A DNA stretch of 64,000 bases from the IMG/VR virus record IMGVR_UViG_2571042445_000002; one strand, 5' to 3'. How positions within the stretch are numbered: the stretch's first letter is position 1; each line of letters begins with the position of its first letter. Below the pieces are notes generated by a model, which made no database searches, had not been told where the DNA came from, and worked only from the letters and a program-made list of their open reading frames with translations. This stretch comes from a virus (Duplodnaviria > Heunggongvirae > Uroviricota > Caudoviricetes). This document shows positions 28,321-60,392 of the stretch, piece by piece. The position numbers and the translations under genes are program-made.

Positions 28321-28695
28321 ATGCTTTATGAGATTGATGCCCGCCTTCAGACAAACGAGAGCGGGGTGGTGATCGCTGAAGGCGACACAAACGCCTGGAT
28401 AGCCCGACTCGATGAATGGCTACGGACACCAAATGGCAGCGTTTACGGATTGCCGTCATGGGGGAATCCGATGGAGGAGTTCAAACACGAACCCTTCGGT
28501 TCTGATACGTCACACATTGTTGAAGTGGCGATTGAAGCGCGAATGATGACGAAGCTACAGCAGGACTTACCAGGGCTTGGACTCCAGGCGATCCGCTGCG
28601 CGACTGTCTCTGAAGACCAGTTACTAATTAGCTTCCAGGCAAAAGGAGGCACCGTGAATGTTGTTATGCAGAAAGATAGCGGAGATACAGCGTGA
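28321..28695 (+). CDS. baseplate protein, gpW/gp25-like candidate
   Basis: 124 aa, immediately upstream of and overlapping the J-like gene. Confidence 0.4.
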   Translation: MLYEIDARLQTNESGVVIAEGDTNAWIARLDEWLRTPNGSVYGLPSWGNPMEEFKHEPFGSDTSHIVEVAIEARMMTKLQQDLPGLGLQAIRCATVSEDQLLISFQAKGGTVNVVMQKDSGDTA

Positions 28696-30122
28696 GTATT
28701 ACCGAATTACTGGACAAGTTTAATGCCAAGCTGAACGAAAACCCCTGGTGGGCGCGATTTGTAAACAGCCAGTTTATTCAAATGCAGTCCGTTTTGGGCG
28801 CGCAGATTGTTTATATTGCGCGTACATTTGCAAGCCGTGCACTTACAGAAGGATTCATTTCCACCGCGACGCGTAGAGCAAGTATTCTCGCGGCAGCGGA
28901 AGACCGTGGCTATGTCGGTCGTTTGGTCGATGCGTCATACGGCACTGTTTCCATCACCAACAAAACCGACAGGGATATTACTCTACCCGGAGGGGCTGAA
29001 TTACTGACAAGTGACCAGACACCAATTGCAACCAGCAGTAGTGTTGTTATCCCTGCTGGTGAAACAGTACCCGGCATAGAAGTAAAACAGCATGAAGCAG
29101 TCAGCGTAACGTTCGACGTGGTGCAAGAAACACCATTCTTGACGCTGTTACTTTCCCGTGAGTTAACAGCAGAAGTCGCCAGCCTGGAAGTTGTCGTGAT
29201 AACTAATGGTGTCGAGGAAAAATGGACACATAACCCCCTGTTCCGCATGTCCAGGGATAACAGTAAACATTATGTGTTGGTTTATAAGCCGACAGAACAG
29301 ATCGGCGTGCGCTTCGGTGATGGATCAATGGGGATGATGCCAGCGGCAGGGAGTCAGGTACGCATTGATATTATGGCAAGCCTCGGTGATTACACGCTGG
29401 CTGAAGGCCAGAAACTTGAACCAGCAGGGAACATCTCCGGGTATGTCGAATCACTGGAAGTAAAAACCGATTCGATCATTTCTGGCGGTGGTGGCATGGA
29501 AACTACCGAGGAAACCCGAAACAGGGCGCAGTATTATGTGGCCTACGATGAGCAGGTTGTTTGGGGCGGTGATTACCGCCAGTTCATTCAGAACGTGGTC
29601 AGTGGCACGTCATGGCTTAACGTGTGGGGGGAGGCGCTACAGGAGAAAATCACGGGCTTTGATGTGCGTAATATCAACAAAATTTTCTTTTGTGGGCACA
29701 AGCCCGGCGTAACACAGGAAGCTCTGAAAACAGAGATATTATCAGCCCTTGAGAGTATCCCTAATGAGCTGAATAAGAAGTTCGAATACGTCGCCACCAA
29801 TGAACAGCCGTTCAACATCAAATTTACCGGTATCGTAAAAAAGAGTGTGCTGGTGGATGACGCGCTAACTGCAATTAAAGCGGCACTGGAGGAGAACTTC
29901 GGTAAAGACTCCATGTCATTTAGCCAGCTATTGCAGAGTGATGACGATTCACAGCAATGTTATGCACAGGTCAAAGTAAAAGATATCTGGCGAGTAATCG
30001 AATCGCTGGATATGTTCCTGTCTTATGACGTGGCTACGCAGAACATGAAAGAAGCTGTGTACTTTAATGATTTTGTTTATCTGGACGTGGAATCATCAAC
30101 GTTCAGCATAACCTATCCGTAA
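28692..30122 (+). CDS. baseplate wedge protein (gpJ/gp6-like)
   Basis: 476 aa; position between W-like and I-like genes; N-terminal region resembles Baseplate_J family by general pattern. Confidence 0.45.
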   Translation: MSITELLDKFNAKLNENPWWARFVNSQFIQMQSVLGAQIVYIARTFASRALTEGFISTATRRASILAAAEDRGYVGRLVDASYGTVSITNKTDRDITLPGGAELLTSDQTPIATSSSVVIPAGETVPGIEVKQHEAVSVTFDVVQETPFLTLLLSRELTAEVASLEVVVITNGVEEKWTHNPLFRMSRDNSKHYVLVYKPTEQIGVRFGDGSMGMMPAAGSQVRIDIMASLGDYTLAEGQKLEPAGNISGYVESLEVKTDSIISGGGGMETTEETRNRAQYYVAYDEQVVWGGDYRQFIQNVVSGTSWLNVWGEALQEKITGFDVRNINKIFFCGHKPGVTQEALKTEILSALESIPNELNKKFEYVATNEQPFNIKFTGIVKKSVLVDDALTAIKAALEENFGKDSMSFSQLLQSDDDSQQCYAQVKVKDIWRVIESLDMFLSYDVATQNMKEAVYFNDFVYLDVESSTFSITYP

Positions 30123-30131
30123 GAGGTCACA

Positions 30132-30974
30132 ATGCAGAATAACTGGCTAAAAGAGCGTCTGACGCAATTTAAACAGGATTCTAAATTGTGGGCCGCCTTT
30201 GTTGATACGATTCAGGACGTGTGGAATGAATCGGTTGAACCTATTCTCACGCGAATAAGCAACCGTAAATCGTTTTTCACAATGGCAAGGGAGGATATGG
30301 ACACTCGCATTGCTGAATATGGTCGTTTCTTTGTTATCACAGAAACGGACAAAACACGCAGGCCAATGCTATTAGCTCAACGACTGGATGAGGTGCACTT
30401 CAAAGGAACAGTAAGGCCGATAGAGCAAACGTTCTGGCGTGAATTTGGCACAATCCCCGTCTCATGGGAACCTTTGTATGCGCCTGTCGATACAGAAAAA
30501 CATCCCTATGGTTCATTCTTCGCGACTGCAAATGAAATACCGACTGCTCAGGCACAATATGGTGAGTTTTTCCTGACATCCAGAGGGCTGGTTGTCGTCA
30601 ACCAAAATAAGCTGTATCGAGCTTATGATAGCGATGACAGAGACGTTGCTGTACAGAAGCTACTTGCTGATTTTGATACGGTTATAGCGCCGCTATTGCC
30701 ATTGCATATCGTGTTTGATGGTGTTTCTTTCCAGTTGAGCGCAACATTGCCGGAAATGGCGGAGATCCTGAATTGCTTATCTGCGGAAGTGTCCTTTATT
30801 GAGGGGGTGTACACGACGCAAGAGATGGTCGATGAACTATCTATTAGCGATACGATCATTCAATTAGACGGCATCCAGTTCGCAGGAAGGCCAGACCGGA
30901 CGACGGAAAGAGTGCTTCATCTCGATGAACTCCCGCTCGACGCCTGGGCGCTGGATTATAATTTTGCACCTTAG
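30132..30974 (+). CDS. tail protein, gpI-like candidate
   Basis: 280 aa following J-like gene. Confidence 0.35.
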   Translation: MQNNWLKERLTQFKQDSKLWAAFVDTIQDVWNESVEPILTRISNRKSFFTMAREDMDTRIAEYGRFFVITETDKTRRPMLLAQRLDEVHFKGTVRPIEQTFWREFGTIPVSWEPLYAPVDTEKHPYGSFFATANEIPTAQAQYGEFFLTSRGLVVVNQNKLYRAYDSDDRDVAVQKLLADFDTVIAPLLPLHIVFDGVSFQLSATLPEMAEILNCLSAEVSFIEGVYTTQEMVDELSISDTIIQLDGIQFAGRPDRTTERVLHLDELPLDAWALDYNFAP

Positions 30975-31090
30975 CAAACCAGGCCCCACCAACCTGGGTG
31001 GGGCCATTTCTCAAAACAAAAGACCACTGGAAATCACAAACTGAACATACTGCCCTTCGATTTATTGCTTGTTAAAGGGGCTATGTTCGT

Positions 31091-31537
31091 ATGGCTGAAA
31101 CTTTAAAATCCCAAAGCGATTCAAGTATTTACAAGGCGCAACTCCTTTCTTACTACTACTCTCGCCGTGCAGAGTCTGCAATCGGCAGGGGTGAGCGTTT
31201 TGTTATGACAAAGGCTTATTGGTGCAAGTCCGATCTTGTGACGGTAAATAGTGCTGGTGGCTGGACTATTTCTGATATTCCGCTCGACTTCAAGTTAAGT
31301 GATGCACAGCATTTTGCTGAATCCAATCTCATTCTTTCCAGCCTCGATGGTGTCATTACGATTAATGCCGCTTTTCCACAAGAAACGATGCCGGACGATA
31401 CACCTTACGATTTCAATACGCTGGTTCTCGTAGATGCAGAGGATCAGGCTTTTGGGGTTGTTTGTACTCAACAGGACACCTTATTCAAAGGTAAGCGATA
31501 CAGCTTGCTCATGACCATTGAACAGGTCGAGGGATAA
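31091..31537 (+). CDS. hypothetical protein
   Basis: 148-aa ORF immediately upstream of tail fiber gene. Confidence 0.4.
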   Translation: MAETLKSQSDSSIYKAQLLSYYYSRRAESAIGRGERFVMTKAYWCKSDLVTVNSAGGWTISDIPLDFKLSDAQHFAESNLILSSLDGVITINAAFPQETMPDDTPYDFNTLVLVDAEDQAFGVVCTQQDTLFKGKRYSLLMTIEQVEG

Positions 31538-31539
31538 TT

Positions 31540-34500
31540 ATGTGCGCAGATAAAGTAAAGAATATTGTCACCTTATCTTCGGACATTTCCGCTCCACTAA
31601 TTGCAGACATGCAATACTTTGAGCTGTATAGCACCGAAGCTCTAAACAGGAAGATGAAAAATATCGTTCTGCCCGGAGTGTACTGTGGGTTTGAACCGGT
31701 GCCAGGGGATGGTCTGTTTGTGCGTATTACATCCGAGAAAACAGAGGGAAGAGGGGCGGCTTCAATTGACGTGGGTAAATGTCAGATATCCGTGCAGCAA
31801 GTCAGTGATGTTCTTGTTCCTGTAGAAGCTGGTGTAACGACAATCATCGTTCTTGAAGCTAATTACGAACATGGAGTGAAAACCAGCCAGGTAGATAGCT
31901 CATCGGATATTAGCGCAGCGAGAATTATTGCTCTCGTTGATGAGGAAATAGCATCTAACCAGATTGAGCTATGCCGCGTGATCGTGCCTGACAATGCTCA
32001 AGCCGTTACCGCAGATATGATTAGCACTGAATATCGTGCTAATCGTGCTGTTGGTGTTGAGTTTTCCAGTGCTTTGGATAGTGACGAAGAATATAAAGCC
32101 GCAACACCTCTTGCTATCAGCACGTTAAACAAACTAAAAGCTCCGGTTGATAGCCCGGAGTTTATTGGTATACCTAAATCTCCAACTCCGGAACAAGGTA
32201 CAAACAGTACACAAATCGCAAACACTGCCTTTGTTCAGGCCGCAATAACCGCCCTTATTGATGGTTCTCCTTCGGCGTTGGATACGCTGAAAAAAATTGC
32301 AGATGCAATTAACAATGATCCTCAGTTTAGCCAGACGATTAATGCTGCTTTAGCTCTTAAAGCACCGTTATTAAGCCCGGCATTTACAGGGGTGCCAACA
32401 GCGCCTACAGCGTCACAAGGTACGAACAACACTCAGATTGCAACAACCGCTTATGTTCGTGCCGCTATTTCTGCATTGGTCGGCTCATCACCAGAAGCTC
32501 TTGATACTCTTAATGAGCTTGCTGCGGCGCTGGGCAATGACCCGAACTTTGCGGCTACAATGACAAATGCCCTGGCAGGTAAGCAGCCTCTCGACGCAAC
32601 CTTAACCGCGCTCGCTGACCTGGCGACGGGGGCAAATAAATTACCGTACTTTACCGGAACAGACACTGTAGCCCAGACTGATTTAACGTCAGTCGGTCGC
32701 GATATTCTTGCTAAAACAAGCACACTGGCTGTTATCCAATACCTTGGTTTAAGAGAACTCGGAACCAGCGGAGAAAAGCTCCCCCTGTTGAGCACAGCTA
32801 ATACCTGGAGTGCACGCCAGACTTTCAGCGCGGGGATCACTGGTACGCTGACCGGGAACGCCGATACTGCGACGAAATTAAAAACAGCCAGAAAGATTAA
32901 CGGTGTGGCATTTGATGGGTCGGCAGATATTACTCTGACCCCTGAAGATCTTGGCTTAACGGATATTGCTTCTCAAGCTGGTAACGCAGTTCAGCGTTCT
33001 GGCGACACAATGGGGGGGCAGCTAAAAATTGGCACAATAAATGCCCTTCGAATATTTAACCAGGACTTTGGCCTTATCTTCAGGAGATCCGAGGAATATC
33101 TTCATCTTATCCCGACAAATGAAGGGGAGGGTGAAAATGGTGACATCGGGCCATTAAGACCATTTTCTATAAACTTAAGAACTGGGTTGGTGTCCATCGG
33201 TAACGGCGTAAAAGTTGGCGGTGGTATTACTGGTAATTTGACGGGAAACGCAGATACTGCCACAAAGCTCAAGATAGCTCGAACGATCGGCGGAGTGTCA
33301 TTTGATGGCAGCGCCAATATCGACCTGCCTGGCGTGAATAAAACAGGTAATCAGAGCACTACCGGCAATGCTGCAACCGCAACGAAACTTCAGACGGCAC
33401 GCACAATCGGCGGAGTGTCATTTGATGGCAGCGCCAATATCGACCTGCCTGGCGTGAATAAAACAGGTAATCAGAGCACTACCGGCAATGCTGCAACCGC
33501 AACGAAACTTCAGACGGCACGCACAATCGGCGGAGTGTCATTTGATGGCAGCGCCAATATCGACCTGCCTGGCGTGAATAAAACGGGTAATCAGAGCACT
33601 ACCGGCAATGCTGCAACCGCAACGAAACTTCAGACGGCAAGAACAATCGGCGGGGTGGCATTTGATGGCACTGCCAATATCAACCTGCCGGGTGTGAACA
33701 TTGCTGGTAACCAGAACACAACAGGTAATGCTGCAACCGCTACAAAACTGCAAACAGCCCGCACAATCAACGGTGTTAAGTTTGATGGTTCTGCGAACAT
33801 TTCGATACCAACAATTACGTCCAGAGGGCGTGTTACTGCGCTCACCAGTACAACGCAAGGTGCTACTACTGGATTGCAGATGTATGAGGCGTACAACAAC
33901 GGCTATCCTTCTGCTTACGGGAATGTGCTTCATCTTAAGGGCGCAACTGCCGCTGGTGAAGGCGAGTTGTTCATAGGTTGGAGCGGCACAAGTGGTGCTC
34001 ATGCGCCTGTACATGTACGTTCGCGACGAGATACTGATACAGCCAGTTGGTCTGAGTGGGCGCAGGTCTACACATCGAAGGATTCCATCCCTGGTGTAAA
34101 TACAACAGGCAACCAGAACACAACCGGAAACGCGGCGTCTGCAACGAAATTACAAACGGCAAGAACTATTGGTGGTGTTTCATTTAATGGCACCGCAAAC
34201 ATCGACCTGCCGGGCGTGAATAAAACAGGTAATCAGAGCACTACCGGCAATGCTGCAACTGCAACGAAACTACAAACAGCGCGCACAATAGGCGGGGTTT
34301 CGTTTGATGGTACAGCAAACATCAATCTTCCGGGCGTTAATATTGCCGGAAATCAAAATACAAGTGGTAATGCAGCTACAGCGACAAAGTTAAAAACTGC
34401 CAGAAAAATAAGTGGAGTGGCTTTTGATGGTTCTGCAGACATCACATTAACGGCAAGTCATGTTGGTGCGTTACCAACAACAGGTGGTACTGTTACCGGT

Positions 34501-35049
34501 GAAATTATATCCAGCAGCCAAAATGCTATACGCCTAACTTATAATAATAACTATGGATTCCTAATAACTAATACTGGATATAGTTTCCAGATATCAACCA
34601 CTGGGCAAAATGTTAATGGTGATGTCGTTTACACTCCATTAAAGATAGATGGCGGTGATGGTCGCGTAGAATTAGGACGTGCTGATGGTCATGTAAGGGT
34701 TATGGGGAATTTATCTGCCGCTGGTCAGATTACCCCTGGTAACTATAGTAATTTCAACACGAAATATCAGGCTAAAAACACAGCATATGCCAACATTCAT
34801 GGATGGCATAAGGATACATCAACTAAGGTGATGATGCAGTGGGGGTTTATAACAAATTTAACTCCAGGAAGCGTGGTTAAATTTCCGACTACTTTTCCTG
34901 AGGCGTGTGCGGTAGTTGTGATTTCGCCTCACAGCGGGAATGCTGTCAATTCAATTCTTTATACATACAACCACTCAGTCACTGGTTTTACAGTGAAAAG
35001 TAGCTCCACTGATAAAATATATGCACAGTATGTTGCTTATGGTTATTAA
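31540..35049 (+). CDS. tail fiber protein with internal tandem repeats
   Basis: 1169 aa; conserved fiber motifs (PEFIGIPKSPTPEQGTNSTQIANTAFV, SPAFTGVPTAPTASQGTNNTQIATTAYV); repeated 40-aa units GNAATATKLQTARTIGGVSFDGSANIDLPGVNKTGNQSTT; SD GAGGG. Confidence 0.75.
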   Translation: MCADKVKNIVTLSSDISAPLIADMQYFELYSTEALNRKMKNIVLPGVYCGFEPVPGDGLFVRITSEKTEGRGAASIDVGKCQISVQQVSDVLVPVEAGVTTIIVLEANYEHGVKTSQVDSSSDISAARIIALVDEEIASNQIELCRVIVPDNAQAVTADMISTEYRANRAVGVEFSSALDSDEEYKAATPLAISTLNKLKAPVDSPEFIGIPKSPTPEQGTNSTQIANTAFVQAAITALIDGSPSALDTLKKIADAINNDPQFSQTINAALALKAPLLSPAFTGVPTAPTASQGTNNTQIATTAYVRAAISALVGSSPEALDTLNELAAALGNDPNFAATMTNALAGKQPLDATLTALADLATGANKLPYFTGTDTVAQTDLTSVGRDILAKTSTLAVIQYLGLRELGTSGEKLPLLSTANTWSARQTFSAGITGTLTGNADTATKLKTARKINGVAFDGSADITLTPEDLGLTDIASQAGNAVQRSGDTMGGQLKIGTINALRIFNQDFGLIFRRSEEYLHLIPTNEGEGENGDIGPLRPFSINLRTGLVSIGNGVKVGGGITGNLTGNADTATKLKIARTIGGVSFDGSANIDLPGVNKTGNQSTTGNAATATKLQTARTIGGVSFDGSANIDLPGVNKTGNQSTTGNAATATKLQTARTIGGVSFDGSANIDLPGVNKTGNQSTTGNAATATKLQTARTIGGVAFDGTANINLPGVNIAGNQNTTGNAATATKLQTARTINGVKFDGSANISIPTITSRGRVTALTSTTQGATTGLQMYEAYNNGYPSAYGNVLHLKGATAAGEGELFIGWSGTSGAHAPVHVRSRRDTDTASWSEWAQVYTSKDSIPGVNTTGNQNTTGNAASATKLQTARTIGGVSFNGTANIDLPGVNKTGNQSTTGNAATATKLQTARTIGGVSFDGTANINLPGVNIAGNQNTSGNAATATKLKTARKISGVAFDGSADITLTASHVGALPTTGGTVTGEIISSSQNAIRLTYNNNYGFLITNTGYSFQISTTGQNVNGDVVYTPLKIDGGDGRVELGRADGHVRVMGNLSAAGQITPGNYSNFNTKYQAKNTAYANIHGWHKDTSTKVMMQWGFITNLTPGSVVKFPTTFPEACAVVVISPHSGNAVNSILYTYNHSVTGFTVKSSSTDKIYAQYVAYGY
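33285..33660. repeat. three tandem 120-bp repeats inside the tail fiber gene (first two identical)
   Basis: 33301-33420 and 33421-33540 are identical; 33541-33660 differs at a few positions; diverged copies continue to ~33780 and recur at ~34150-34440. Confidence 0.8.
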
Positions 35050-35080
35050 AAATATAGTTAATTAGAATGAAGGTGCTTAA

Positions 35081-35503
35081 ATGGCAAAGTATTACAGCAA
35101 AGAGACTGGTGGTTTCTACGACGACAGACTAAAAGAAGATTACGATAAAAACGGTTCATGGCCGTCCGATACTGTACATATACCTGATGACTTATATGAT
35201 GAATTGTTATCAGGGTATGGCAATGGGAAAATAATAATTGCAAATGGCGATGGTTATCCAATGTTATCTGACCCACAACCTATGAGCTTAGAGGATAGAG
35301 TCAGCATTGCTGAAAACACCAAAAGTAGTCTTATGAATGATGTGAGCATAAAAATATCAACGCTTCAGGATGCTGTTGATATGGATATTGCCACTGATGA
35401 GGAAATAGAAATGTTGACAAAGTTAAAGAGGTATAGAGTTCTTCTTAATAGAGTTGACACTTCTGTTGATGCAGATATCTCATGGCCTGAGATGCCTGTA
35501 TAA
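35081..35503 (+). CDS. tail fiber assembly chaperone (Tfa-like)
   Basis: 140 aa; C-terminal EEIEMLTKLKRYRVLLNRVDTSVDADISWPEMP typical of Tfa proteins; directly downstream of fiber gene. Confidence 0.6.
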   Translation: MAKYYSKETGGFYDDRLKEDYDKNGSWPSDTVHIPDDLYDELLSGYGNGKIIIANGDGYPMLSDPQPMSLEDRVSIAENTKSSLMNDVSIKISTLQDAVDMDIATDEEIEMLTKLKRYRVLLNRVDTSVDADISWPEMPV

Positions 35504-35546
35504 ACAATCATAACAATCCAATCAGCACTGCTTTTTTGATATTTCA

Positions 35547-35575
35547 AGCCCTCTTTTGTTGAGGGCTTTATTAGT
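35547..35575 (+). terminator. rho-independent terminator after tail fiber assembly gene
   Basis: AGCCCTC-TTTTGTT-GAGGGCT followed by TTATTAGT. Confidence 0.55.
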
Positions 35576-35963
35576 GAGTGCTTTTGTGACCTTTTTTAGT
35601 AATACAATCCTTTGGTACAAAAAAGCCGCCGTCCAGTCAATGACGGCGGGCAAAATGAACACTCAGTTAGTGGTATCTGAGAGGGGGGCATTATATTCAC
35701 TGAATGACGCTTGTGAAGACTCACATGTCATCATTTTGTCCTCAAGAATCAGCTCACATCTTGCGCATTCAAGCGTATTTCTCTTTAAAGCCGTGTTTGG
35801 ACCATTTTGTTGATACGCGAATTTGGCATCCTCCACGCTCTGAGTGACGAGGTTTACGGACCACCGGGCCATCATATGCATCCATTTTGTGTGAATGGCA
35901 TTTAGTCGGGAAATAACAAACTGGATAAGTTGAAGCCGCGTTAAACGTCATTTCTGGAGGGGT

Positions 35964-36290
35964 ATGTTTGCAGATTATGAAAATCTGGCTGTAGCAGTCA
36001 TAACATCCCTGCTGAGTGGAACCGGCGTATTCCTTCTCGGAGTTAGAGACGGGCGCATTTCTGCGTCACTGCTCAACCTCGCGAGTGAATTGTTTACTGC
36101 GGTAACTGCCGGGCTTGCGGGGTTTTGGGTGGCTGATAGCTATGAATGGCCGGAAGGCATCATTTACTGCGTTGTTCTGATTGCCAGTAACAACGGAAGT
36201 GAAATTTTACAGGGCTTGAAGTCCAGAGCTAGTAACGTCTTGAATCTCTTAAGCGTAATAGCGAGTGGGGGAAAAGGTGGAGAGAAGTAA
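35964..36290 (+). CDS. holin-like small membrane protein (LydA-like candidate)
   Basis: 108 aa with ~3 hydrophobic segments and charged C-terminus; SD GGAGGGG; first gene of operon that includes the DarA-like gene. Confidence 0.4.
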   Translation: MFADYENLAVAVITSLLSGTGVFLLGVRDGRISASLLNLASELFTAVTAGLAGFWVADSYEWPEGIIYCVVLIASNNGSEILQGLKSRASNVLNLLSVIASGGKGGEK

Positions 36291-36736
36291 TGGGTGACTT
36301 TGGAAATTATTTCATTTTTATCATGGCATTTGTTGCCGTTATTGACCGTTTCTTATTTCGTCGCAAGAGTGTTGATATTTTGAGCATTGGCGAAGCTGTA
36401 GTGAAAGAGTCTGCTATAGCGTTTCCCGTGTCGCTTCGCGTTAAGCGAAGCTGGGTAAGCAATGCACAAATCGAATATTGGTTGCAGGACTTGAAAAATC
36501 CATCTGTGGTTATTTCGGGGAAAACAAGACCAGTTGACGCATCAAAACGCGGTGAGAGAGAAGAATATTTGCTCATCGACACGAAATATCTTGAGCCAGC
36601 GAAGTGGGATCTAAAGGTCACATTGACTAACGGTAATTGCCGCCTGAATCCGCTTTATCGCATTTTCCCTATCAATGACTGCATAGAACGCCAGTTTATG
36701 ATTGAAAAGTGTGAAGGAGACTGGAATGTCAAATAA
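36290..36736 (+). CDS. hypothetical membrane-anchored protein
   Basis: N-terminal hydrophobic segment FGNYFIFIMAFVAVI; overlaps flanking genes. Confidence 0.35.
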   Translation: MGDFGNYFIFIMAFVAVIDRFLFRRKSVDILSIGEAVVKESAIAFPVSLRVKRSWVSNAQIEYWLQDLKNPSVVISGKTRPVDASKRGEREEYLLIDTKYLEPAKWDLKVTLTNGNCRLNPLYRIFPINDCIERQFMIEKCEGDWNVK

Positions 36737-37343
36737 GTCTAATTATGTTCTTCTTAATTATGATGAGTTAAACGAAAAGGGGCTGGCAAAACTCGTCAAA
36801 GAAATCGGTAAAGGAGGCTACAAGATAGCGAGGGTGATCCCCGCCAGTAATGGCAGGAAGAAAGACGGGATCATGACGCGCACGTTTACCCTTATCGGAA
36901 TCGATGAGCAGACGATGGACGTTCAGGTTAATGATACTGGTGATATTTCTGGTGTAAAACTGAACGGAAAAATTGTTCCTTTCAAGCCAGTTAAAACGCT
37001 GATGGCTTTAGGGCAATCACTGGCTGCTTTATTTAATAAAGGCGCATCATCATTTCAGAAATCATTGGCGCGTAAGTTAGCTCGTGCGGCGAAAGATATT
37101 GATGATGGGAATAAGAAAATAAAAGGCGTTAAGTCCAATGCGCAGAAACTAGCAGAGGCAAAGGAATCTCGCGATGCGATCCGCGAGGATATTGAAAGGG
37201 CCAAAGAAAAATTAAATCAGGTGCAAGGTAATTCAGACCGCGCAACAAGAGAAACTGAAATCATTAGAACCGAGATGGCGCAGGAACTGGCGAAAACTCG
37301 CGTATTGAAAGAAGAAATAGCGCGCCTGGAGGAAGATGCATGA
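36726..37343 (+). CDS. hypothetical protein with C-terminal coiled-coil
   Basis: ATG 36726 with AAGGAG SD; 205 aa. Confidence 0.4.
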   Translation: MSNKSNYVLLNYDELNEKGLAKLVKEIGKGGYKIARVIPASNGRKKDGIMTRTFTLIGIDEQTMDVQVNDTGDISGVKLNGKIVPFKPVKTLMALGQSLAALFNKGASSFQKSLARKLARAAKDIDDGNKKIKGVKSNAQKLAEAKESRDAIREDIERAKEKLNQVQGNSDRATRETEIIRTEMAQELAKTRVLKEEIARLEEDA

Positions 37344-39292
37344 TAAAGAAACCTATTCGAATAAATATCCAGTCCACTTTTGCAGATACGCTCACTGGAT
37401 ATACGCCTAATCGTTGGGTGGCGGAGGATATCACCGAGGATGATTTACTTATCGAGCCTGCGACGCTGGAAGATATCGAGCTGGCCTATATGGGCAACGA
37501 AATTTTGGTAACTACCAATGAGGCAATGTTCGAAGCTATAACCACAACAAAATTGCGGTTAGCGCAAACAATGCGAGCATTTGTCCGGGCGCTTAATCGC
37601 GGCCTGAATGGCACTGACATTGCTGCGGGTACGGATGAGGCAGGTGAATATGAAGACGGACGTAATAGTATCGGTGGGGCAATCATTGGGCGCGTGCGCC
37701 GGGTTGCTAATATCCCTGTTGTAACAGCACAAATACCTCTAACCGATGGACAAACGACAAGCATAATTTTCCATTCTCCAACCGCAGACGGCACAAGAAT
37801 TAAAGGGGATGACGAGCTGGTTGCGTTTCAGTTTCTTCTTAACAAAAGAAACGTTACGCATGTTGTTGCGCCAATCGGTGGGCGTGATGTATCTCTGAGC
37901 CAGGTGTGTCAGGCGCTTTCTAACCTCATTGAGCGTAACAGTGCAAAATTCAAAAAAGCAAAGGAGCGCCAGGACAAAATGAAGGCTGATATTGAGGGGT
38001 ATCTCAATGAAGCCGACAAGCTGGCAGAAGAACGTTCTGTGCTGATTGAGCAGGTTGAAGACGCACAGCGGGGGCTGGCAGAGAAACGCTCAACACTCAA
38101 TGATATGCAGAATAAATTAGACGCACAAAAAGCCCTTAACGCGGAATTGCAGGCTAAGCGCGATAATTTATTGTCAGCTAAGAGCCAAGGAACTAAAGAG
38201 CGAGCCTTCAATGATCAACTGCGACACATAAAACATAATCTTGCTACAGAAGGCCAAACAACGCTGGATAATGGTGCTGTAGTTAAGTATGTCACGTCAG
38301 GCAGTGATAGCTTTGTCACGATTGAGGCACCAGAAGGCAATTTCAGTATTGATGTCAGTGCTGTTAAAGGTGGGAGTTCAGCGGACGCTGCAACCAAATT
38401 ACTTAAAGCCTATCGTGAACATAATGCTGATCAATACAAAGTGGATGTGTTGCCGGGCCAGCCTGAGCCAACTGATCAGCCGCAGCCTGAACAGGAGCCA
38501 CAACCAGCATCACATCCTGATCCCCTGGAGGTTGGTAAATATCGCTATGCGCTCCAATCTCGCCCGGCGGGTGTTGGTGCGGTTCCTGAAGGAAATAAAG
38601 CTGTACTTGACCGTCCTGATCAGGCTGATCCGTATTACGAATATGCTCGTCACGGAATCATTACGTATGACCGCAAACTGACAGATGAAGAAGTCAGTCA
38701 GTACGAGTTGCTATATCTCCCTGGTGACGATGAATTGAAAGAGATTGCAGGCGAATTGGTTGCGTCCAGTATGTCGAACCATATTGATGGCTACGTTGAT
38801 CTGTTTGGAAGCGACTTGAAAACCTTTAAGGCGCAGATAAAAATCCTCTTCCGCAAAGCATTTCCTAACGTCGCTTATCCACTTGGAGATGGGGAGAACC
38901 TTTTTATAATGGATATCTATAACGCGCTTCAGAATCAATCAGAAGTAGTCGAAGCTGAACAGACATTAGATCAGGCGCCGGAAGCAGTACAAGAACCAGA
39001 ACCTGAGTCTGAACCTGAATCCCCCCAAGAGTCTGATACAGGTTCAGATGGGCCAGTAGTTAGTGAGGCTGATCAGGAGGCGGACAGTGCGCTGGAATAT
39101 CTGAAATCCGTGCCGTTGCAGTTTACGTCCCGTGATTTGACGGTGATTAGAGCGGAGTTTGATCGCATTCAGGAGGCAGCTAATGTTCTTATCAACGCAG
39201 GTCGATATGATGAGAACGAGTCACTTGTTGGTGCGGCAGCCGATCACCTGATCAACATTCTGGCAGAGATACAACAAGGGGGCGTGTGGTGA
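37340..39292 (+). CDS. large hypothetical protein, possible DarA-like virion internal protein
   Basis: 650 aa; size and operon context (after holin-like genes, as in the P1 lydA-lydB-darA arrangement recalled); central coiled-coil, acidic Pro-rich linkers. Confidence 0.4.
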   Translation: MIKKPIRINIQSTFADTLTGYTPNRWVAEDITEDDLLIEPATLEDIELAYMGNEILVTTNEAMFEAITTTKLRLAQTMRAFVRALNRGLNGTDIAAGTDEAGEYEDGRNSIGGAIIGRVRRVANIPVVTAQIPLTDGQTTSIIFHSPTADGTRIKGDDELVAFQFLLNKRNVTHVVAPIGGRDVSLSQVCQALSNLIERNSAKFKKAKERQDKMKADIEGYLNEADKLAEERSVLIEQVEDAQRGLAEKRSTLNDMQNKLDAQKALNAELQAKRDNLLSAKSQGTKERAFNDQLRHIKHNLATEGQTTLDNGAVVKYVTSGSDSFVTIEAPEGNFSIDVSAVKGGSSADAATKLLKAYREHNADQYKVDVLPGQPEPTDQPQPEQEPQPASHPDPLEVGKYRYALQSRPAGVGAVPEGNKAVLDRPDQADPYYEYARHGIITYDRKLTDEEVSQYELLYLPGDDELKEIAGELVASSMSNHIDGYVDLFGSDLKTFKAQIKILFRKAFPNVAYPLGDGENLFIMDIYNALQNQSEVVEAEQTLDQAPEAVQEPEPESEPESPQESDTGSDGPVVSEADQEADSALEYLKSVPLQFTSRDLTVIRAEFDRIQEAANVLINAGRYDENESLVGAAADHLINILAEIQQGGVW

Positions 39293-46081: not shown

Positions 46082-46399
46082 ATTTATATCGTCACTAAAA
46101 AACAGCATCTGATAAAAATTCTGTTGATCTTTCTAATGTTCAGGCTTATATTCATGCCGTCGTAGCAAATTCTGCGACCGGGTTTAGCAGCCTGAATGTT
46201 AGTGCGGACAACCGCAGATATCCGATATTGCGGTATTTTTGTGTCCGTAAAACCGCGTTACGCCCAAATTATGGTGGGGCGTGATGGGGAGGCTTCGGCC
46301 TGCTGGTTTCACTAACGCCAGTCTGCTAACCCCGTCACGTCCTGCCACCTGTTTAGCAGCGGGTAGCAGGTTGTTAAACCTGTTAGTGAGGCCGTAACT

Positions 46400-48848: not shown

Positions 48849-51800
48849 TTGGACAAAATAATTGATTCAATTAGCCAGGCCACCAGCATTGGGGCGCTGA
48901 TTGAAATTGTTAGTCGGTTGCATAAACCGCGAGCTGTAGTGACCTTTGGCGTTAAGAAAGTCGATGGCGTCAGTATTCAGAAAACACGCCGGGCAGCAAA
49001 CAACGCCGCAGTAAATCTTCTTAATTCCCTTCCGCCTGGCTTCGATGGGGCGAAATTAACTGACGAACAGCGCCAGATTCTTGCCGGGTATACCGGTGAA
49101 GGCGGCCTGACAGATGGTGAGGGCAGCCAATACGAATACTATACGCCACAGTTTATGGCAGAAGGTATATGGGATCTCTTCGGCGACTACGGTATTGATA
49201 GCGGTCACGTACTGGAACCGTCAGCAGGCACAGGTATTTTCCAGGAGACAAAACGGCAGGGCATGATAATGACCAGTGCCGAACTGTCTCCGATCTCCGG
49301 TCGAATAAACCAGCTTTTGCACCCGGAAGATGATGTGAATATCGGGGCGTTTGAGGCGCTGGCGGCGAAAGATGCAATGTATGACCACGCAGTTGGTAAC
49401 GTACCGTTTGGCGAAGGGCGTTCCGGCGTCGCCGGGCTTGATCCGGCATATGCAAACGAGAAGAACGTTGGCAATTATTTTGTGCTGCGCACGATCGACA
49501 AGGTTAAGCCTGGTGGACTAATTGTATTGGTGGTGCCGAATGGCATGACCGATGGTACGAAATACAAAAAATTGCGCGATAAAGTCAGCCGTAAAGCGGA
49601 ATTTTTGGGCGCGCATCGTATGCCTTCTGGTACGTTCAGCGAATCCGGTACAGATACCGTGGTGGACGTATGGGTATTGCGTAAACACCCGGAAACCTTC
49701 CTGGAGATGATCCCCGACACGGATGATGCAACGCTCAAATCGGCAAACGTCCTTTGGGATACCTTCCTCAAAGGGAAATGGTTTACAACCGAAGGGAAGC
49801 GATTTGTTTACGGCGACATGGAACGCACCAGCTTCCGCAATACCCTGGTGGTGAAAAAGGACGGTCGTGTATCCAATGAGTCGATGAAAACCGCGTTATC
49901 ATGCCGCTTTGAAAGCCGTATTAATTGGGATTTGCTCGGAGTAACTACCCAGGCATGGCAGGGCGCAAAAGTAGGGGATAAGCGTCTTGTAGGCGGTATC
50001 TGGCATGAGTTTGATGGCCTGAAATGGGTTAAGGACACGACAACCAAATCCTCCGCGCTTGATGTAAGTCGATATGGTGTTTCGACGTTTGGCGATCTGC
50101 AGATCGCGTTCCAGTCAACAAACGGGATTCTGGCTTTGTCATGGGACCAGATATCGGCGATCGCGTCCGACTATCCATCGGTTGTCAGTGATGAAGTGGC
50201 AGCAATGATTCGCTTTGCTGGCAAACAGCGAGAAAAAGACAGGGAGCGCGTTATGCGCGGTGCGTTGATAGGGCAGTTGATCAACAAGGCACTTGATTTG
50301 CGTAACCTGGGGGTGAACGTTGATGACAAACTGGCAGATGCATCCCGCCTGGCGGCAGCAGAAGTTGCGAAGTATGGACCACCGCACGCGATTAAGCTGA
50401 ATGGGCTTGCTGAAGCTGGCGCTAAAAACTGGATGACGTTCACTGGCAATGTGAAACAGGATGGTTCCACTTCTGACCTTCTGGCAGGGCGACTTGATGT
50501 AACGGATGGTGCTGCCGGTATTGACTTTACACGTCCGGAACAAGTGATAGCACATCTTTTCAGTGATGTAGCCCTTAATCCTATAACGCTGGGCGACTTT
50601 CGTGAGGCGTTTGCTGGTGAACTGCCAGAGGACGACGACGCGGCCCTTGAATACCTGGCGAAATTTGATGATATCGCTATTGATGGGTATGGCTGCCTGC
50701 TGCCGATGGACCGCGCCACCAGCGGCGATATTGTAACCAAAACAGCATTGCTGGTGGGCTGGCGTGATGCATCAACAGGTGAGCAGAAAGCGAACTTTGA
50801 GCGTCAGTTGGCGAAAATCGAAGAGAAACGCATTTTCACGCCACTAAATAAAGTCACCGTTAATCTGAACGCCCGCTGGCTGGATCGCCGCTTGATAAAA
50901 GAGTTCCTGGCAGAGCAGGGCTATGACGAGTTTAAGTACACTGAACCTGATCTGAAGGTCGTCGATGGCATTCTGGTATCTCCGGACGATTACGAAGGTA
51001 AGGACGGGGTATTTACCGGCTATCAGCTACGAACCGTAAACGGCAAAAACGGGAATGAGTTCAAGAAGGCCAACAATAAAGACGGCTTCCTGAACCAGTT
51101 AGAAAACTACCTGAACGGTGTTAAACCGCGTGGGCAGAACGCTAACGAGTACCTGGATAAAATTGCTCAACTGGAAGTTAGCTTTAACGACTGGTTACGC
51201 ACCCACCCGCAGGCGGATCAGATAGCCCGTGACTATAACGACGCATTCAATGGCTTCATTCCGTTCACGCACTCTAACGCACCGCTTGGCCTGGAAGGGA
51301 TTAGTGGAAAGCGCATTCCTCTGACTTATCAGAATGAAGAAGTTCGTCGCTTGTCAGAAGATGGGCGCGGCATCATGGGATTTGGTACCGGGCTGGGTAA
51401 AACCACGACCGCGCTTGCGCTTGAGGCGTATAACTTCGAAACAGGTCGTACTAAACGCACGTGTATTGTTGTTCCGAAGGCGGTTTATCAGAACTGGTAT
51501 CACGAGGCACAGAGCTTCTACAGTGCTGATGCCTTCGCCAATATGATGTTTATCGGTCTGGATGAAGTTCGTGATGACAGCGGAAATATTCTGACCGCTC
51601 CGGTGCTTGATGAAAATGGCGAACCCCGCCTCGACAGTAACGGGCAGCCTCTTACCAGAAATGTTGTGAAAGAGTCCGCCAGCGCCGTTATCGTTCAGCG
51701 CATGAACATGATCCCGTCGTCAAATTGGCGAACGGTCATCATGACAAAAGAACAATTCGCGTCTATCCCGCTACGAGAAAAAACCATCGAGGAGAACTCA

Positions 51801-54800
51801 CAGCAAGCTGTCTTTAATGCTGTGGAAATGGGGCGTCTTGACCTGGCGTCTGGTAAACACCGTGATGCGCAGAAGAAGAACAAGATTAAGGATCAGGCCG
51901 CGAATACCGGTACAACGAAGAAGCAGAATATCCCGTACTTTGAGGATATGAACTTCGATAGCGTGATAGCCGACGAGGGGCATAACTACCGCAACTCCTT
52001 TAATGCCGGGCGTGAAGCGGGACAACTGGCATATTTGCCTAACCCGGCAGTATCCAAGATGGCCCGCGACATGGCTGTAAAAGCTGCGTACATGATGAAA
52101 CGCAACAACGGGCGTGGTGTAGTCATGCTGACGGCAACACCGCTGGTGAACAGTCCGATTGATGCCTTCAACATGCTGTCTACTGTCATTCCGCAGGAAG
52201 AGTGGATGCGCATGGGCATCATTACGCCTGATGATTTCGTTCGTGTGTTTGGTAAAACAGCCACAGTTCAGGTCCAGAAAATTTCCGGGGAAGTGGAAGA
52301 GAAGCAGGGGCTGGTTGGCTTCCAGAACCTTGATGGCCTGCGTGGTATTTTCCATCGCTGGACTACTCTGAAGACTGCTGCGGACGTCGGGGCGACGGTT
52401 AAAATCCCTGATATTGTCGAGAATACCTTGCAGATCCCGATGACAGGGGAGCAGGAGGCTGCTTATGAAGAGCTTCGTAAGCGTGCACAGGAGTTAAGTA
52501 GTAAAGATGCGCTGACGGTTGATGAAAACGGGCATATCACAAACGAAAAACCGGATGATTTCATCTTCTCCATCATCCGCGACATGGATAAGGTTGCTAT
52601 AGATCCGGATCTGTATGCCAGTGCGATTACATTCCAGTTCCCCGTTGAGCTTGCAGACAAGGTAAAAGCTATTGCTGATGCCCTGCCAAAAGTAGCTGGC
52701 GGTAAAGTGGCAGATGATGCAGACGAGGCCGAAGAAGACGGCGCTGGTGGGCTGGTTAGTACGCGCACCAGTAAGGTAGTGAAGACCACCTTTAGTGAAC
52801 ATCCGGCGCATGTTGAAATACGTGCCAGCATTGAACTGGAAGCTGAAATACTGAAGGCCATTGCTGCCGCCGGGATTGATATGCAGCAGGTATCACACCC
52901 AATCCCGCCGAAGTATGCCGCGCTGATCGAAAACCTTCGTGAAGGTCTGAAGAACGGTAAACAAATTGTCTTCATTGATGAAAAAGCCCAGCACCAGAAG
53001 CTGCGCCGTATTATCGCCAGTGCACTGCAAATGCCGGAGCAGGAGATAGGCATTATCAATGCGACGACCGTTAGCCAGGCTGGCGGCATCAAGCTGAAGA
53101 AGGTGAATAAGCCGACTGAACCTACTCCGAATAAAAATGGTGAATACAAAGAAGGGGCATGGGAAACCTACTACAGCAAACTTGCCCAATATGAGGATTA
53201 TCTCTCAGCTAAAAATGATGCTGGCCTTGAGGGTATGGAAGGCATTGCCGCCGACTATAACGAAGGGCGCACGCGCATAATTATCTGTAACAAGAAGGCT
53301 GAAGTAGGTATTAACCTGCATATCGGGACAACCGATATCCACCACCTGACACTACCCTGGACACCAGCCAGTATCGACCAACGAAATGGGCGCGGTGCGC
53401 GCGTAGGTTCACCGCAAGAGAAGGTCAATGTTCACTACTATTGTGGCAAAGGCACATTCGACGACTTCCGTCTGGATACGCTGAAACGTAAGAAAGACTG
53501 GATCAAGATGGTGATGACCTCCGACATGTCAGAGATCGCCAATGGTGATGCGGATGATGCTGATGAACGCGCCATTATGCTGGCGGCAAACCCGGAAGAA
53601 CGCCGCGCAATCATGGCTCGCCAGGCGCAAGAGCGTGAAGAACGTCTGAAACTGAAAGCACAGCGCGAGGCCAACAATGCTCTCGATATCTACCTGAAAG
53701 CGGCAAACGCCGCTGGAAAAGATATCGGCATGATGGAGACAGAACTGAAAAGCGCGATGGAACAGATAGAGTATTACCAGCGAAATCTTGACGACCTGAT
53801 AAAAGCGGGTACGAACAGGAATGGGCAAAAATTCGCGCTTGAGCAGTTGAGTAGCTACAGAAAACGTGCGCGGGTGCTGCGGTTTGCGATCACCAGGGCA
53901 AAAGACGCGGATACCATAATGAAACGCTCTCGTGGTGATGTGGAGCGCGCTATTAAGTCTGGTGTGCTGGATATCAGTATCGATGTTATTCAGAACCCAC
54001 AGGAATATATGCGCACTGACAAGAATATCCTGTTGCATAAAGGTAGTTATTACCGTGCAGTCATTGATGATCGCGAAACAACAGCGATTGTCCGGGTGGA
54101 AAAAATTGACGGTGAAAAAGCACAATACCTCTGCCGTATCGCCTGGCTGGATAGAGCAAGTCGTTACGCTCGAGCACCGGGGTCAATCGTTACATTGCCG
54201 TTTGACTCTGTGATTGAAGCGGTAACTTTTGAAGAGGGGGTAGCTGAATCGCGCGCAACGGCTGCGCGTGGTGTTCAGTGCCACCAGCTATCAACAATAC
54301 TTACTCGCGATCAGTTCTATGATGCTATTCGCAATGGGGTAATGAATGTTATTGCTGGTAAACCTGGTAATGCATGGGGCGGTGGGTCAGCTATTAAATA
54401 CTGGGCATATCGCACAGATGATGGTCAGATCGCGCTGTCATCGGCCTATGATGGCGTGATAGGCCAAAAAATCGGGCGAGCATCGGATATAGCACCTGAA
54501 CGATGGATATATCCAGATGGCAACGATGAGGCGCTGAAGCGTGAAGTGGCAAAAATACAAGCCAGTGATAACCCGCTGAATATCGTGGACGGCGAGGGAT
54601 TCCTCCAGGCATTGTATGGGTATGATTACATCCAGGGAATGCAGGCATGGGGCGCACAGGCAACGATGGATGATGTTGTCCAGGAGTTCGAAAACTGGAT
54701 GGCTGGGCGTGGTCTGTCAGGTCGTTCGCTTAATAAAGTCACTTCTGAAGATATTCTTAGCTTGTTCCGCAAACCGTCCGGAGAAGGTCTGGAATCATTC

Positions 54801-60238: not shown

Positions 60239-60313
60239 GATGGTGTAGCTCAGTGGTAGAGCAGTTGGCTGTTAACCAACTGGTCGGTGGTTCGAATCCA
60301 CTCACCATCGCCA
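60239..60313 (+). tRNA. tRNA-Asn (anticodon GTT)
   Basis: Cloverleaf parsed manually: acceptor GATGGTG/CACCATC, D-arm GCTC-AGTGGTA-GAGC, anticodon loop CTGTTAA, T-loop TTCGAAT, 3' CCA encoded. Confidence 0.8.
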
Positions 60314-60315
60314 AT

Positions 60316-60391: not shown

Positions 60392-60392
60392 A

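What the first reader, a model, noticed from the sequence alone, without database searches (positions are those of the whole stretch)
33285..33780. Perfect tandem 120-bp repeats inside the tail fiber gene
Two 120-bp units are identical and a third differs at a few bases, each encoding one 40-aa fiber repeat; diverged copies follow and recur near 34150-34440. Identical tandem units imply recent expansion and make the fiber length-variable by replication slippage or recombination, a plausible host-range diversification mechanism. The AT-rich C-terminal fiber segment and Tfa gene look like an exchangeable cassette.
Basis: seen in the sequence. Interest (0 to 1): 0.45.

Follow-up and report, generated by a model that had tools for sequence, protein, structure and literature searches.

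The report
Length-variable repeats in P1-like tail fibre
The tail-fibre gene of this P1-like phage-plasmid has a real run of near-identical 120-bp (40-amino-acid) shaft repeats, and related E. coli plasmids have gained, lost or swapped fibre segments exactly at these repeats; this is a clear example of a known way phages remodel fibres, not a new mechanism.

Summary
Units 33286-33405 and 33406-33525 are identical, 33526-33645 differs at 3 synonymous bases, and 33646-33765 at 23 bases. All are in frame in a 1169-aa homologue of phage P1 tail-fibre gene S (31540-35049).

The protein has nine copies of a 40-aa motif (GNAxTATKLxTARxIGGVxFDGxANIxLPGVNxxGNQxTT) in three blocks (1, 5, 3), separated by two non-repeat modules.

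Of 16 close relatives on complete E. coli plasmids, 11 share this architecture and 5 differ. All five variants are in frame with breakpoints inside repeat units. They include a clean one-unit (120-bp) difference between two near-identical plasmids and an exact 882-bp deletion. Draft assemblies carry the window's own 9.5-kb background with 3, 4 or 6 units instead of 5, but short-read misassembly is not excluded for those.

So the repeats are fibre-shaft units that double as in-frame recombination or slippage junctions. The length-variability claim is supported; the host-range consequence is untested, and the receptor-binding tip is the same in all length variants.

The low-GC tip plus Tfa "cassette" is compositionally real. 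The motif is widespread but has no Pfam or NCBIfam model and no solved structure. The kind is known; the interest is modest.

The parts
31091..31537 (+). Homologue of P1 gene R (tail-fibre assembly or structural protein), immediately upstream of S
   Evidence: phrog_2032 E=1.4e-69. Precomputed Pfam PF26881 Phage_P1_tail_fiber_R on the identical contig. Same position as R in P1.
31540..35049 (+). Tail-fibre gene S (1169 aa). Architecture: N-terminal P1 Sc-like part, R1, K1, R5, K2, R3, tip
   Evidence: ORF and translation. 82% nt identity to P1 Sc over gene nt 655-1367. phrog_454 tail fibre, E=0. Pfam Gp53-like_C at aa 1097-1169.
32735..32754 (+). Perfect copy of the P1 cixR 20-mer (Cin crossover site) inside S. 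It is the only such site in the 64-kb window and has no partner
   Evidence: 0 mismatches to TCCAATACCTTGGTTTAAGA; 0 matches expected in shuffles. The site was taken from the P1 annotation.
32854..32943 (+). First, solitary repeat unit (aa 439-468, 'terminal' type ending ...DGSADITLT), leading into module K1
   Evidence: Motif position. It is the left breakpoint of the K1 replacement in NZ_CP173593 and of the K1 deletion in NZ_CP159120.
32944..33243 (+). Non-repeat module K1 (aa 469-568)
   Evidence: Absent in NZ_CP159120 and replaced by a 406-aa module in NZ_CP173593. Weak similarity to Mu tail fibre S, 5yvq residues 156-210.
33244..33813 (+). Repeat block 2: five units at aa 569, 609, 649, 689 and 729 (the last is of terminal type). 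It contains the finding
33286..33645 (+). The three (near-)identical 120-bp units of the finding (120/120 and 117/120); exact 179-bp repeat tract 33286-33464 = 33406-33584
   Evidence: This is the site of the +120, -120 and -240 bp differences in otherwise identical contigs.
33814..34125 (+). Non-repeat 'knob' module K2 (aa 759-862), also present in P1 S between its two repeat units
   Evidence: P1 S aa 523-610 is homologous. K2 is deleted in NZ_CP069647 and duplicated in P0121.
34126..34455 (+). Repeat block 3: three units at aa 863, 903 and 943 (the last is of terminal type; GC 0.42)
   Evidence: One unit fewer in NZ_CP098883 and NZ_CP098907.
34456..35046 (+). Low-GC distal tip (aa 973-1169), the presumed receptor-binding part
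   Evidence: GC 0.40. Similar to Mu tail fibre S 5yvq residues 266-332 and to the R1 pyocin fibre foot 6cxb. Pfam Gp53-like_C.
35081..35503 (+). Tail-fibre assembly chaperone (P1 U / lambda Tfa family), GC 0.378
   Evidence: Pfam Caudo_TAP E=1.8e-34. phrog_188.

Best explanation
The 120-bp units encode a 40-residue structural repeat of the shaft of the trimeric side tail fibre (gene S) of a P1-like phage-plasmid.

Internal units (ending ...NIDLPGVNxxGNQxTT) chain to one another. 'Terminal' units (ending ...DITLT or ...NISIP) lead into non-repeat modules (K1, K2) or the tip. The protein sequence of the unit is under purifying selection, so its DNA stays similar across copies and across co-circulating fibre genes.

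This makes the units substrates for unequal homologous recombination, gene conversion and replication slippage. Because the unit is a multiple of three bases and a self-contained structural step, every such event is in frame and probably assembles.

The outcomes are:
- Unit gain or loss, each step changing the fibre by 40 residues per chain.
- Homogenisation of neighbouring units, which is why two units are identical here.
- Deletion, duplication, insertion or replacement of whole modules between repeat blocks, including the distal tip.

Shown: the anatomy, the family assignment, the in-frame variants and their breakpoints.

Inferred: the molecular pathway (RecA-dependent exchange versus slippage), the trimeric beta-structure of the unit, and any effect on adsorption or host range.
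For: Anatomy:
- Nine motif units in blocks of 1, 5 and 3, separated by 90- and 94-aa non-repeat spacers.
- Unit 1 versus unit 4 shows 23 nucleotide but only 6 amino-acid differences, which indicates purifying selection.

Family:
- Synteny sit-pmgA-bplA-16-R-S-U-lydA-lydB-darA as in P1.
- 82% nt identity to P1 Sc.
- P1 S itself has the arrangement R-K2-R.

Variation in complete E. coli plasmids (16 relatives):
- 11 have 1169 aa, as the window does.
- The other five have 1343, 1303, 1405, about 1000 and 875 aa. All are in frame, and all breakpoints lie inside repeat units.
- NZ_CP098883 and NZ_CP098907 differ in S by exactly one 120-bp unit and by nothing else. Their flanks are 99.9% identical.
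- NZ_CP069647 is an LR890273-type allele with an exact 882-bp deletion. The junction lies in a 14-bp identity between a block-2 unit and a block-3 unit.

Concerted evolution:
- Window-type alleles have units 609 ~ 649 (119/120), whereas CP104667-type alleles have 609 = 689 (120/120) with a different unit in between.
- Mismatches to LR890273 are mosaic along the gene: 38 in nt 1-1080 and 1 in nt 1081-2400.

Same 9.5-kb background with a different unit count:
- +120, -120 and -240 bp, with 0-1 other mismatches.
- Among the 120 best protein hits, architectures run from R2 to R6 in block 2. K2 is deleted or duplicated, and 214-237-aa modules are inserted at different repeat junctions.

Structure and distribution of the unit:
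- The AF2 monomer model shows a strictly 40-residue periodic beta-hairpin pattern.
- There is a weak profile match to the trimeric stalk of the phage L Dec protein.
- The motif is widespread in fibre-like proteins: 1485 hits at E<1e-10, including marine metagenomes.

Experimental precedent: in-frame tandem duplications in a tail-fibre gene evolved repeatedly during coevolution and raised infectivity (PMC6365445).
Against: - In complete assemblies every allele of the window's architecture has exactly five block-2 units, even at 4% nucleotide divergence. Copy number may therefore be fairly stable or selected.
- The 3/4/6-unit contigs on the window's background look like short-read drafts. An exact 179-bp repeat tract can be collapsed or over-expanded by an assembler.
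- No read-level or population data were available.
- All length variants share the same tip, so there is no direct link to host range.
- The trimeric fold of the unit is not established: AF2 mean pLDDT was 71 and pTM 0.32, there was no Foldseek match, and the PDB profile hit has only E=0.02.
Confidence: 0.75

Rival explanations
1. The identical units, or their number, are an assembly artefact. The true array has a different count, and the 'ladder' among public assemblies reflects how assemblers resolved a tandem repeat rather than biology.
For: - The window is a WGS draft contig (AYOG01000020.1).
- The exact repeat tract is 179 bp and the near-exact tract about 355 bp. That is as long as or longer than many short reads.
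- Contigs identical to the window apart from -120, -240 or +120 bp have accession styles typical of draft or surveillance assemblies.
- Draft-derived proteins are mostly R3 or R4, while complete genomes of this architecture are all R5.
Against: - The same five-unit array with the same unit sequences is found in independent complete plasmids (NZ_LR890273, NZ_JBWKMP010000003).
- Twelve alleles agree on five units.
- Complete plasmids also show clean in-frame variants (one unit; 882 bp; module insertions) that collapse cannot create.
- A six-unit version (P0122, P0123) is not a collapse product.
Confidence: 0.15
2. The array is a stable structural spacer with no role in variation. It sets a fixed shaft length, and the identical units reflect only gene conversion. 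The variants seen are rare, neutral or defective accidents.
For: - Five units are kept in all 12 complete alleles of this architecture, across up to 4% divergence.
- The amino-acid sequence of the units is strongly conserved.
- The repeat motif is ancient and widespread.
Against: - 5 of 16 complete relatives have a different architecture. All are intact ORFs with an intact tip and chaperone.
- Several variant architectures recur in many independent contigs, e.g. 875 aa, 1345 aa and 1405 aa. This argues that they are viable and transmitted.
Confidence: 0.1
3. A programmed switch generates the variation: a contingency locus, a shufflon or DNA-inversion system, or a diversity-generating retroelement.
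For: - P1 relatives do use a programmed switch at this gene (Cin inversion).
- A perfect cixR site survives inside S.
- One relative, NZ_CP159120, still has a recombinase plus an alternative Sv'/U' arm.
Against: - There is no cin, Sv' or U' between U and lydA, only 460 bp of intergenic DNA.
- Only one cix-like site exists in the 64 kb, allowing up to 3 mismatches.
- None of the nine ORFs screened by Pfam as candidate invertases or for other reasons (eight of about 177-213 aa, plus the 2278-aa ORF) is a resolvase or invertase. The window was not screened exhaustively.
- The unit length is a multiple of three, so slippage cannot switch the gene on or off.
- The breakpoints in relatives lie in the repeats, not at cix.
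Confidence: 0.02

Closest known systems
Bacteriophage P1 tail-fibre gene S (Sc/Sv) with R, U and the Cin-invertible C segment
   Same: - Same gene order (bplA-16-R-S-U next to lydA-lydB-darA).
- 82% nt identity to Sc.
- The same 20-bp cixR sequence at the same place in S.
- P1 S also carries the 40-aa unit, flanking the same K2 knob (R-K2-R).
- The two alternative P1 tips diverge immediately after the second unit.
   Different: - Nine units instead of two, five of them in tandem.
- An extra module, K1.
- A different, low-GC tip (Gp53-like C-terminus) and a shorter U (140 aa).
- No lydC, cin, Sv' or U', so the fibre is fixed and not invertible.
- P1's annotated repeats a0/a1/b1/b2 are a different, 74-aa repeat in Sc.
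Mosaic evolution of tail-fibre genes by exchange at conserved motifs (P1/p15B/Mu/P2/lambda/T4 comparisons by Sandmeier and by Haggard-Ljungquist, from my own knowledge; protein-fragment shuffling, PMC10684548)
   Same: Conserved short coding motifs inside fibre genes act as junctions at which segments are exchanged, duplicated or lost. The result is chimeric but functional fibres.
   Different: Here the junction motif is a defined 40-aa tandem unit. The exchange can be followed between near-identical natural plasmids at single-unit resolution.
Adaptive in-frame duplications in tail-fibre genes (T4 gp37 small-domain duplications, Tetart et al. 1996, from my own knowledge; Enterococcus phage EfV12-phi1, PMC6365445)
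   Same: Tandem in-frame duplication inside a fibre gene changes fibre length or valency. The duplicates vary in number within populations.
   Different: In those cases the duplications were shown experimentally to change infectivity or host range. Here no phenotype is known, the unit is much smaller (120 bp against 1.8 kb in EfV12-phi1), and it lies in the shaft rather than in or next to the adhesin.
C-terminal trimeric stalk of the phage L decoration protein Dec (PDB 6e3c)
   Same: Shares the motif NAxTAxKLxTARxI...G..FDGSxN (profile E=0.02; phrog_3018 'head decoration protein' match).
   Different: The similarity is weak and covers a single copy in a capsid-decoration protein, not a tandem array in a fibre. 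Membership of one fold family is not established.

Membership tests
P1-type tail fibre gene S (Punavirus) | Located in the late operon after bplA, 16 and R, and followed by a Tfa-type chaperone (U) | tested here: met
   ORFs 28692-30122, 30132-30974, 31091-31537, 31540-35049 and 35081-35503. PHROG and Pfam assignments. Same order as in the P1 annotation.
P1-type tail fibre gene S (Punavirus) | Sequence homology of the constant N-terminal part (Sc) | tested here: met
   82% nt identity to P1 S over gene nt 655-1367. Protein colinear with P1 S up to and beyond the cix site.
P1-type tail fibre gene S (Punavirus) | Invertible C segment: cin invertase, two inverted cix sites, and an alternative Sv'/U' arm | tested here: not met
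   Only one cix-like site in 64 kb. Only 460 bp with no ORF of that kind between U and lydA. No resolvase domain in the ORFs screened. One relative, NZ_CP159120, retains a recombinase plus Sv'/U'.
Pfam PF03406 Phage_fiber_2 (phage tail fibre repeat) | The repeat unit matches the family HMM above the gathering threshold | tested here: not met
   The only hit is at aa 174-198, at 20.1 bits against a cut-off of 22. Nothing is found over aa 439-972. No NCBIfam model hits S either.
Caudovirales tail-fibre assembly protein (PF02413, lambda Tfa / P1 U) | HMM match above threshold, in a gene directly downstream of the fibre gene | tested here: met
   E=1.8e-34, 119 bits against a cut-off of 22.1, for 35081-35503.
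Contingency locus (phase variation by repeat slippage) | A change in repeat number shifts the reading frame or promoter spacing, giving ON/OFF switching | tested here: not met
   The unit is 120 bp, or 40 codons. Every variant observed keeps the frame and the same stop codon.
Length-polymorphic tandem coding repeat (unequal exchange or slippage) | Alleles that differ only by whole units, on otherwise (near-)identical sequence | tested here: met
   NZ_CP098883 versus NZ_CP098907: 120 bp, with 0 other differences in S. Window versus L021, L022, L023 and L025: +120, -120, -120 and -240 bp, with 0-1 mismatches in 9.4-9.6 kb. The second set carries a short-read assembly caveat.
Length-polymorphic tandem coding repeat (unequal exchange or slippage) | Copy-number heterogeneity within a single population or lysate | not testable with these tools
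   No read data are available. This needs long-read or PCR sizing.
Trimeric beta-helical or beta-structured fibre shaft repeat | The unit forms a repeating trimeric beta structure | tested here: inconclusive
   The AF2 monomer model is 40-residue periodic with one beta-hairpin per unit, at pLDDT 71 and pTM 0.32. No Foldseek PDB match. Weak profile hit to the Dec stalk, E=0.02. No multimer prediction was possible.

The most novel reading that the evidence does not exclude
In this cin-less branch of P1-like phage-plasmids, the 40-aa unit may act as a dedicated in-frame 'recombination linker' that takes over the role of the lost Cin inversion switch. Frequent unequal exchange at the units, possibly helped by phage functions, would continually generate a population of fibres of different length and module content behind one fixed tip. 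Selection would then pick lengths that match the thickness of the host's O-antigen or capsule layer. That would make shaft length a heritable and rapidly tunable host-range determinant.
Probability: 0.12. Interest if true: 0.55.

Novelty: new member of a known kind. Interest (0 to 1): 0.3.

Why it matters
P1-like phage-plasmids are common in clinical E. coli, carry resistance genes, and are being engineered as DNA-delivery vehicles. Three practical points follow.

- The fibre is built from 40-aa units that tolerate in-frame gain, loss and module insertion. This gives ready-made splice points for fibre engineering.
- Annotated fibre lengths from short-read assemblies are unreliable.
- The motif is a widespread, unmodelled and structurally unsolved fibre repeat that would merit a family model.

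It does not change how tail-fibre evolution is understood.

Tried and rejected
- Pfam, NCBIfam and PHROGs. No curated family covers the repeat. PHROG hits are many mosaic 'tail fiber' families and were not informative about the unit itself.
- PDB sequence search with the whole protein. It found only the Sc-type repeat (9d93), the Mu S pre-tip (5yvq) and the pyocin foot (6cxb), and nothing for the 40-aa unit. A profile of double units gave only the Dec stalk at E=0.02.
- AF2 on the five-unit block with a 67-sequence alignment gave a periodic but low-confidence monomer. Foldseek against the PDB returned nothing.
- Tip plus Tfa DNA against the phage collection in distant mode gave no match. So I could not show the source of the 'cassette', only its absence elsewhere and its replacement in Klebsiella relatives.
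- Programmed inversion was considered because of the perfect cixR site. I rejected it for lack of cin and of a partner site.
- Literature searches for a prior description of this repeat or of copy-number variation in P1-like fibres found general precedents only. One search failed on a term that was too short.
- The first protein search, with the 200-aa array as query, returned only proteins of 350 aa or fewer, so it was useless for a census of full-length fibres. The full-length query was needed.
Full report
**1. Observation**

Tandem Repeats Finder reports an array at 33286-33768 with period 120, 4.0 copies, 92% matches and no indels. It reports a second, more diverged array at 34099-34342.

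- Units 33286-33405 and 33406-33525 are identical.
- Unit 33526-33645 differs at three bases, all synonymous.
- Unit 33646-33765 differs at 23 bases but only six residues.
- The longest exact repeat tract is 179 bp.

All units lie in frame in ORF 31540-35049 (1169 aa).

**2. What the gene is**

The ORF is the homologue of bacteriophage P1 tail-fibre gene S.
- It is 82% identical at nucleotide level to the constant part of P1 S.
- It sits in the P1 late-gene order sit-pmgA-bplA-16-R-S-U and is followed by lydA, lydB, a darA-like gene and darA.
- The window also carries the P1-type C4 antisense RNA and phage tRNAs.
- The window is identical to NCBI draft contig AYOG01000020.1 (91.7 kb) over 28540-38049, at the same coordinates.
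- Its 16 closest relatives are all E. coli plasmids of 89-96 kb.

Unlike P1, this element has no lydC, cin, Sv' or U'. U is followed by 460 bp of intergenic DNA and then lydA. Even so, the 20-bp cixR site is perfectly conserved inside S at 32735-32754, with no partner anywhere in the window. One relative, NZ_CP159120, still has a recombinase gene and an alternative fibre arm.

**3. Anatomy of the repeats**

The motif GNAxTATKL occurs nine times, at aa 439, then 569/609/649/689/729, then 863/903/943.
- Internal units are 40 aa and end in ...NIDLPGVNxxGNQxTT.
- The last unit of each block ends differently (...DITLT or ...NISIP) and leads into a non-repeat module (K1, aa 469-568; K2, aa 759-862) or into the tip.
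- P1 S has the minimal version, R-K2-R. Its two alternative tips diverge immediately after the second unit.

What is known about the unit:
- No Pfam or NCBIfam model covers it.
- No solved structure matches it, apart from a weak profile hit to the trimeric stalk of phage L Dec (E=0.02).
- An AF2 monomer model is strictly 40-residue periodic, with one beta-hairpin per unit, but has low confidence (pLDDT 71, pTM 0.32). It has no Foldseek match.
- The motif is widespread. 1485 proteins match at E<1e-10, including marine and insect-gut sequences, often in tandem.
- In E. coli its DNA is found almost only in P1-like plasmids: 395 of 409 places, in 124 of 5426 genomes.

**4. Do relatives vary?**

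Yes. Among the 16 complete-genome relatives, 11 have a 1169-aa S like the window. The other five have 1343, 1303, 1405, about 1000 and 875 aa. All are intact and end in the same tip.

Every breakpoint falls inside a repeat unit:
- K1 is deleted in NZ_CP159120.
- K1 is replaced by a 406-aa module in NZ_CP173593.
- A 214-aa module is inserted in NZ_CP098883 and NZ_CP098907.
- K2 is deleted in NZ_CP069647.

Two cases are especially clean.
- NZ_CP098883 and NZ_CP098907 differ in S by exactly one 120-bp unit and by no other base. Their flanks are 99.9% identical.
- NZ_CP069647 equals the LR890273-type allele apart from an exact 882-bp deletion and one mismatch. The junction lies within 14 bp of identity shared by a block-2 unit and a block-3 unit.

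The five-unit alleles also differ in which units are identical. Units 609 ~ 649 match in the window type, whereas 609 = 689 in the CP104667 type. Mismatches between alleles are distributed in a mosaic pattern along the gene. This is the signature of gene conversion and allelic recombination.

**5. Wider census, and a caveat**

A full-length protein search gave a ladder of lengths in 40-aa steps: 1209, 1129, 1089, 1049 and 1009; 915, 875 and 835; 1345 and 1305. It also gave many architectures, with K2 duplicated or deleted and with 214-237-aa modules at different junctions.

Five of these proteins are identical to the window's protein outside the array. The contigs behind three of them (P0122, P0129, P0160) were fetched and are identical to the window over 9.4-9.6 kb, apart from +120, -120 or -240 bp (0-1 mismatches).

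Taken at face value, this is a 3/4/5/6-unit allelic series on a single background. However, these look like short-read drafts. The exact repeat tract is 179 bp. In complete assemblies every allele of this architecture has five units. Assembler collapse or over-expansion therefore cannot be excluded for this series. I rest the variation claim mainly on the complete plasmids.

**6. The 'cassette' claim**

- GC falls from 0.51-0.54 in the array to 0.42 in the last unit, 0.40 in the tip and 0.378 in the Tfa gene. The window average is 0.477.
- The tip-plus-Tfa DNA occurs only in these 16 plasmids among 5426 E. coli genomes, and it has no match in the phage collection.
- Klebsiella proteins P0228-P0230 keep the same N-terminal part (521 of 530 residues identical) but carry a different knob and a different tip with a glycine-rich domain.

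So the distal part is exchangeable on evolutionary timescales, and the repeat units mark the boundary. No recent exchange within this lineage was seen.

**7. Mechanism**

Shown:
- In-frame 40-aa units.
- Purifying selection on the peptide.
- Identical or near-identical neighbouring units.
- Natural variants whose junctions lie in the units.

Inferred:
- The units are shaft elements of a trimeric fibre.
- Variants arise by unequal homologous exchange or gene conversion where long identity exists (179-355 bp).
- Variants arise by slipped misalignment or short-homology events where identity is short (14 bp in NZ_CP069647).

Both routes are established for tandem repeats in E. coli (my own knowledge of RecA-dependent and RecA-independent tandem-repeat rearrangement).

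A functional effect on host range is plausible. In-frame tail-fibre duplications evolved and increased infectivity in an Enterococcus phage (PMC6365445), and O-antigen layers shield receptors (PMC10743462). It is untested here, and the receptor-binding tip is unchanged in all length variants.

**8. Comparison with the known, and verdict**

Repeated motifs as exchange points in tail-fibre genes are well known:
- The variability of the lydC-cin-Sv'-U'-U-S region of P1-like phage-plasmids (PMC9603915).
- Fragment shuffling in phage receptor-binding proteins (PMC10684548).
- Older P1/p15B/Mu/P2 comparisons (my own knowledge).

This locus is a clear and well-resolved example in a cin-less P1-like lineage. 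It involves a repeat unit that lacks a family model and a solved structure. I rate it a new member of a known kind, with modest interest (0.3).

Noticed in passing
window 32735-32754: A perfect 20-bp P1 cixR crossover site lies inside S, although the element has no cin gene, no second cix site in 64 kb, and no alternative Sv'/U' arm. It is either a relic kept by coding constraint (it encodes ...IQYLGLRE...) or a landing site for a Cin-family invertase supplied in trans.
   Followed up: partly
window 35504-35963; L019 (NZ_CP159120 2500-9200): The place where P1 has lydC-cin-Sv'-U' is here only 460 bp long. It holds two terminator-like hairpins and a possible 72-aa ORF on the minus strand (35663-35881). 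The relative NZ_CP159120 keeps a recombinase gene, a recombinase fragment, a 752-aa 'pyocin knob' Sv' and a U' at this spot. The invertible arm was therefore either lost in most of this lineage or regained in one member.
   Followed up: partly
window 32149-32593 (S aa 204-351): This is a second, older repeat inside S: two 74-aa units (...PTxxQGTNxTQIAxTAxVxAAIxALxxxxPxxLDTLxExAxAxxNDPxF...). They correspond to P1's annotated b1/b2 elements. The second unit (aa 300-367) matches the 'tail collar fibers gp4' chain 9d93. The below-threshold Pfam Phage_fiber_2 hit lies just upstream, at aa 174-198.
   Followed up: partly
protein P0121: A 1383-aa allele carries the K2 knob twice, in the arrangement R4-K2-R4-K2-R3. 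Duplications mediated by the repeats can therefore span a whole module of about 254 aa, not just single units.
   Followed up: no
window 61589-62164: This 191-aa ORF has a Thoeris anti-defence Tad2-like domain (Pfam PF11195, E=4.4e-10). It lies just downstream of the tRNA cluster.
   Followed up: no
window 48849-55685: This 2278-aa ORF has N6-methyltransferase, SNF2/ResIII and helicase C domains, which is DarB-like. Together with the DarA and DarA-like genes at 36702-39292, it points to a full anti-restriction (Dar) set.
   Followed up: no
window 46146-46352 and 60239-61136: These regions hold the P1-type C4 antisense RNA with its a1/b1 target (Rfam RF01695, RF03163) and four tRNA genes (Asn, Thr, Ser, Met-CAT). 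ARAGORN calls tRNA-Ser at 60580-60666, but Rfam does not report it at gathering threshold.
   Followed up: no
(public assemblies): In complete genomes, every fibre of this architecture has five block-2 units. In draft assemblies, the fibres mostly have three or four. This is consistent with systematic collapse of the repeat in short-read assemblies, and it is a warning for any automated comparison of tail-fibre lengths.
   Followed up: partly
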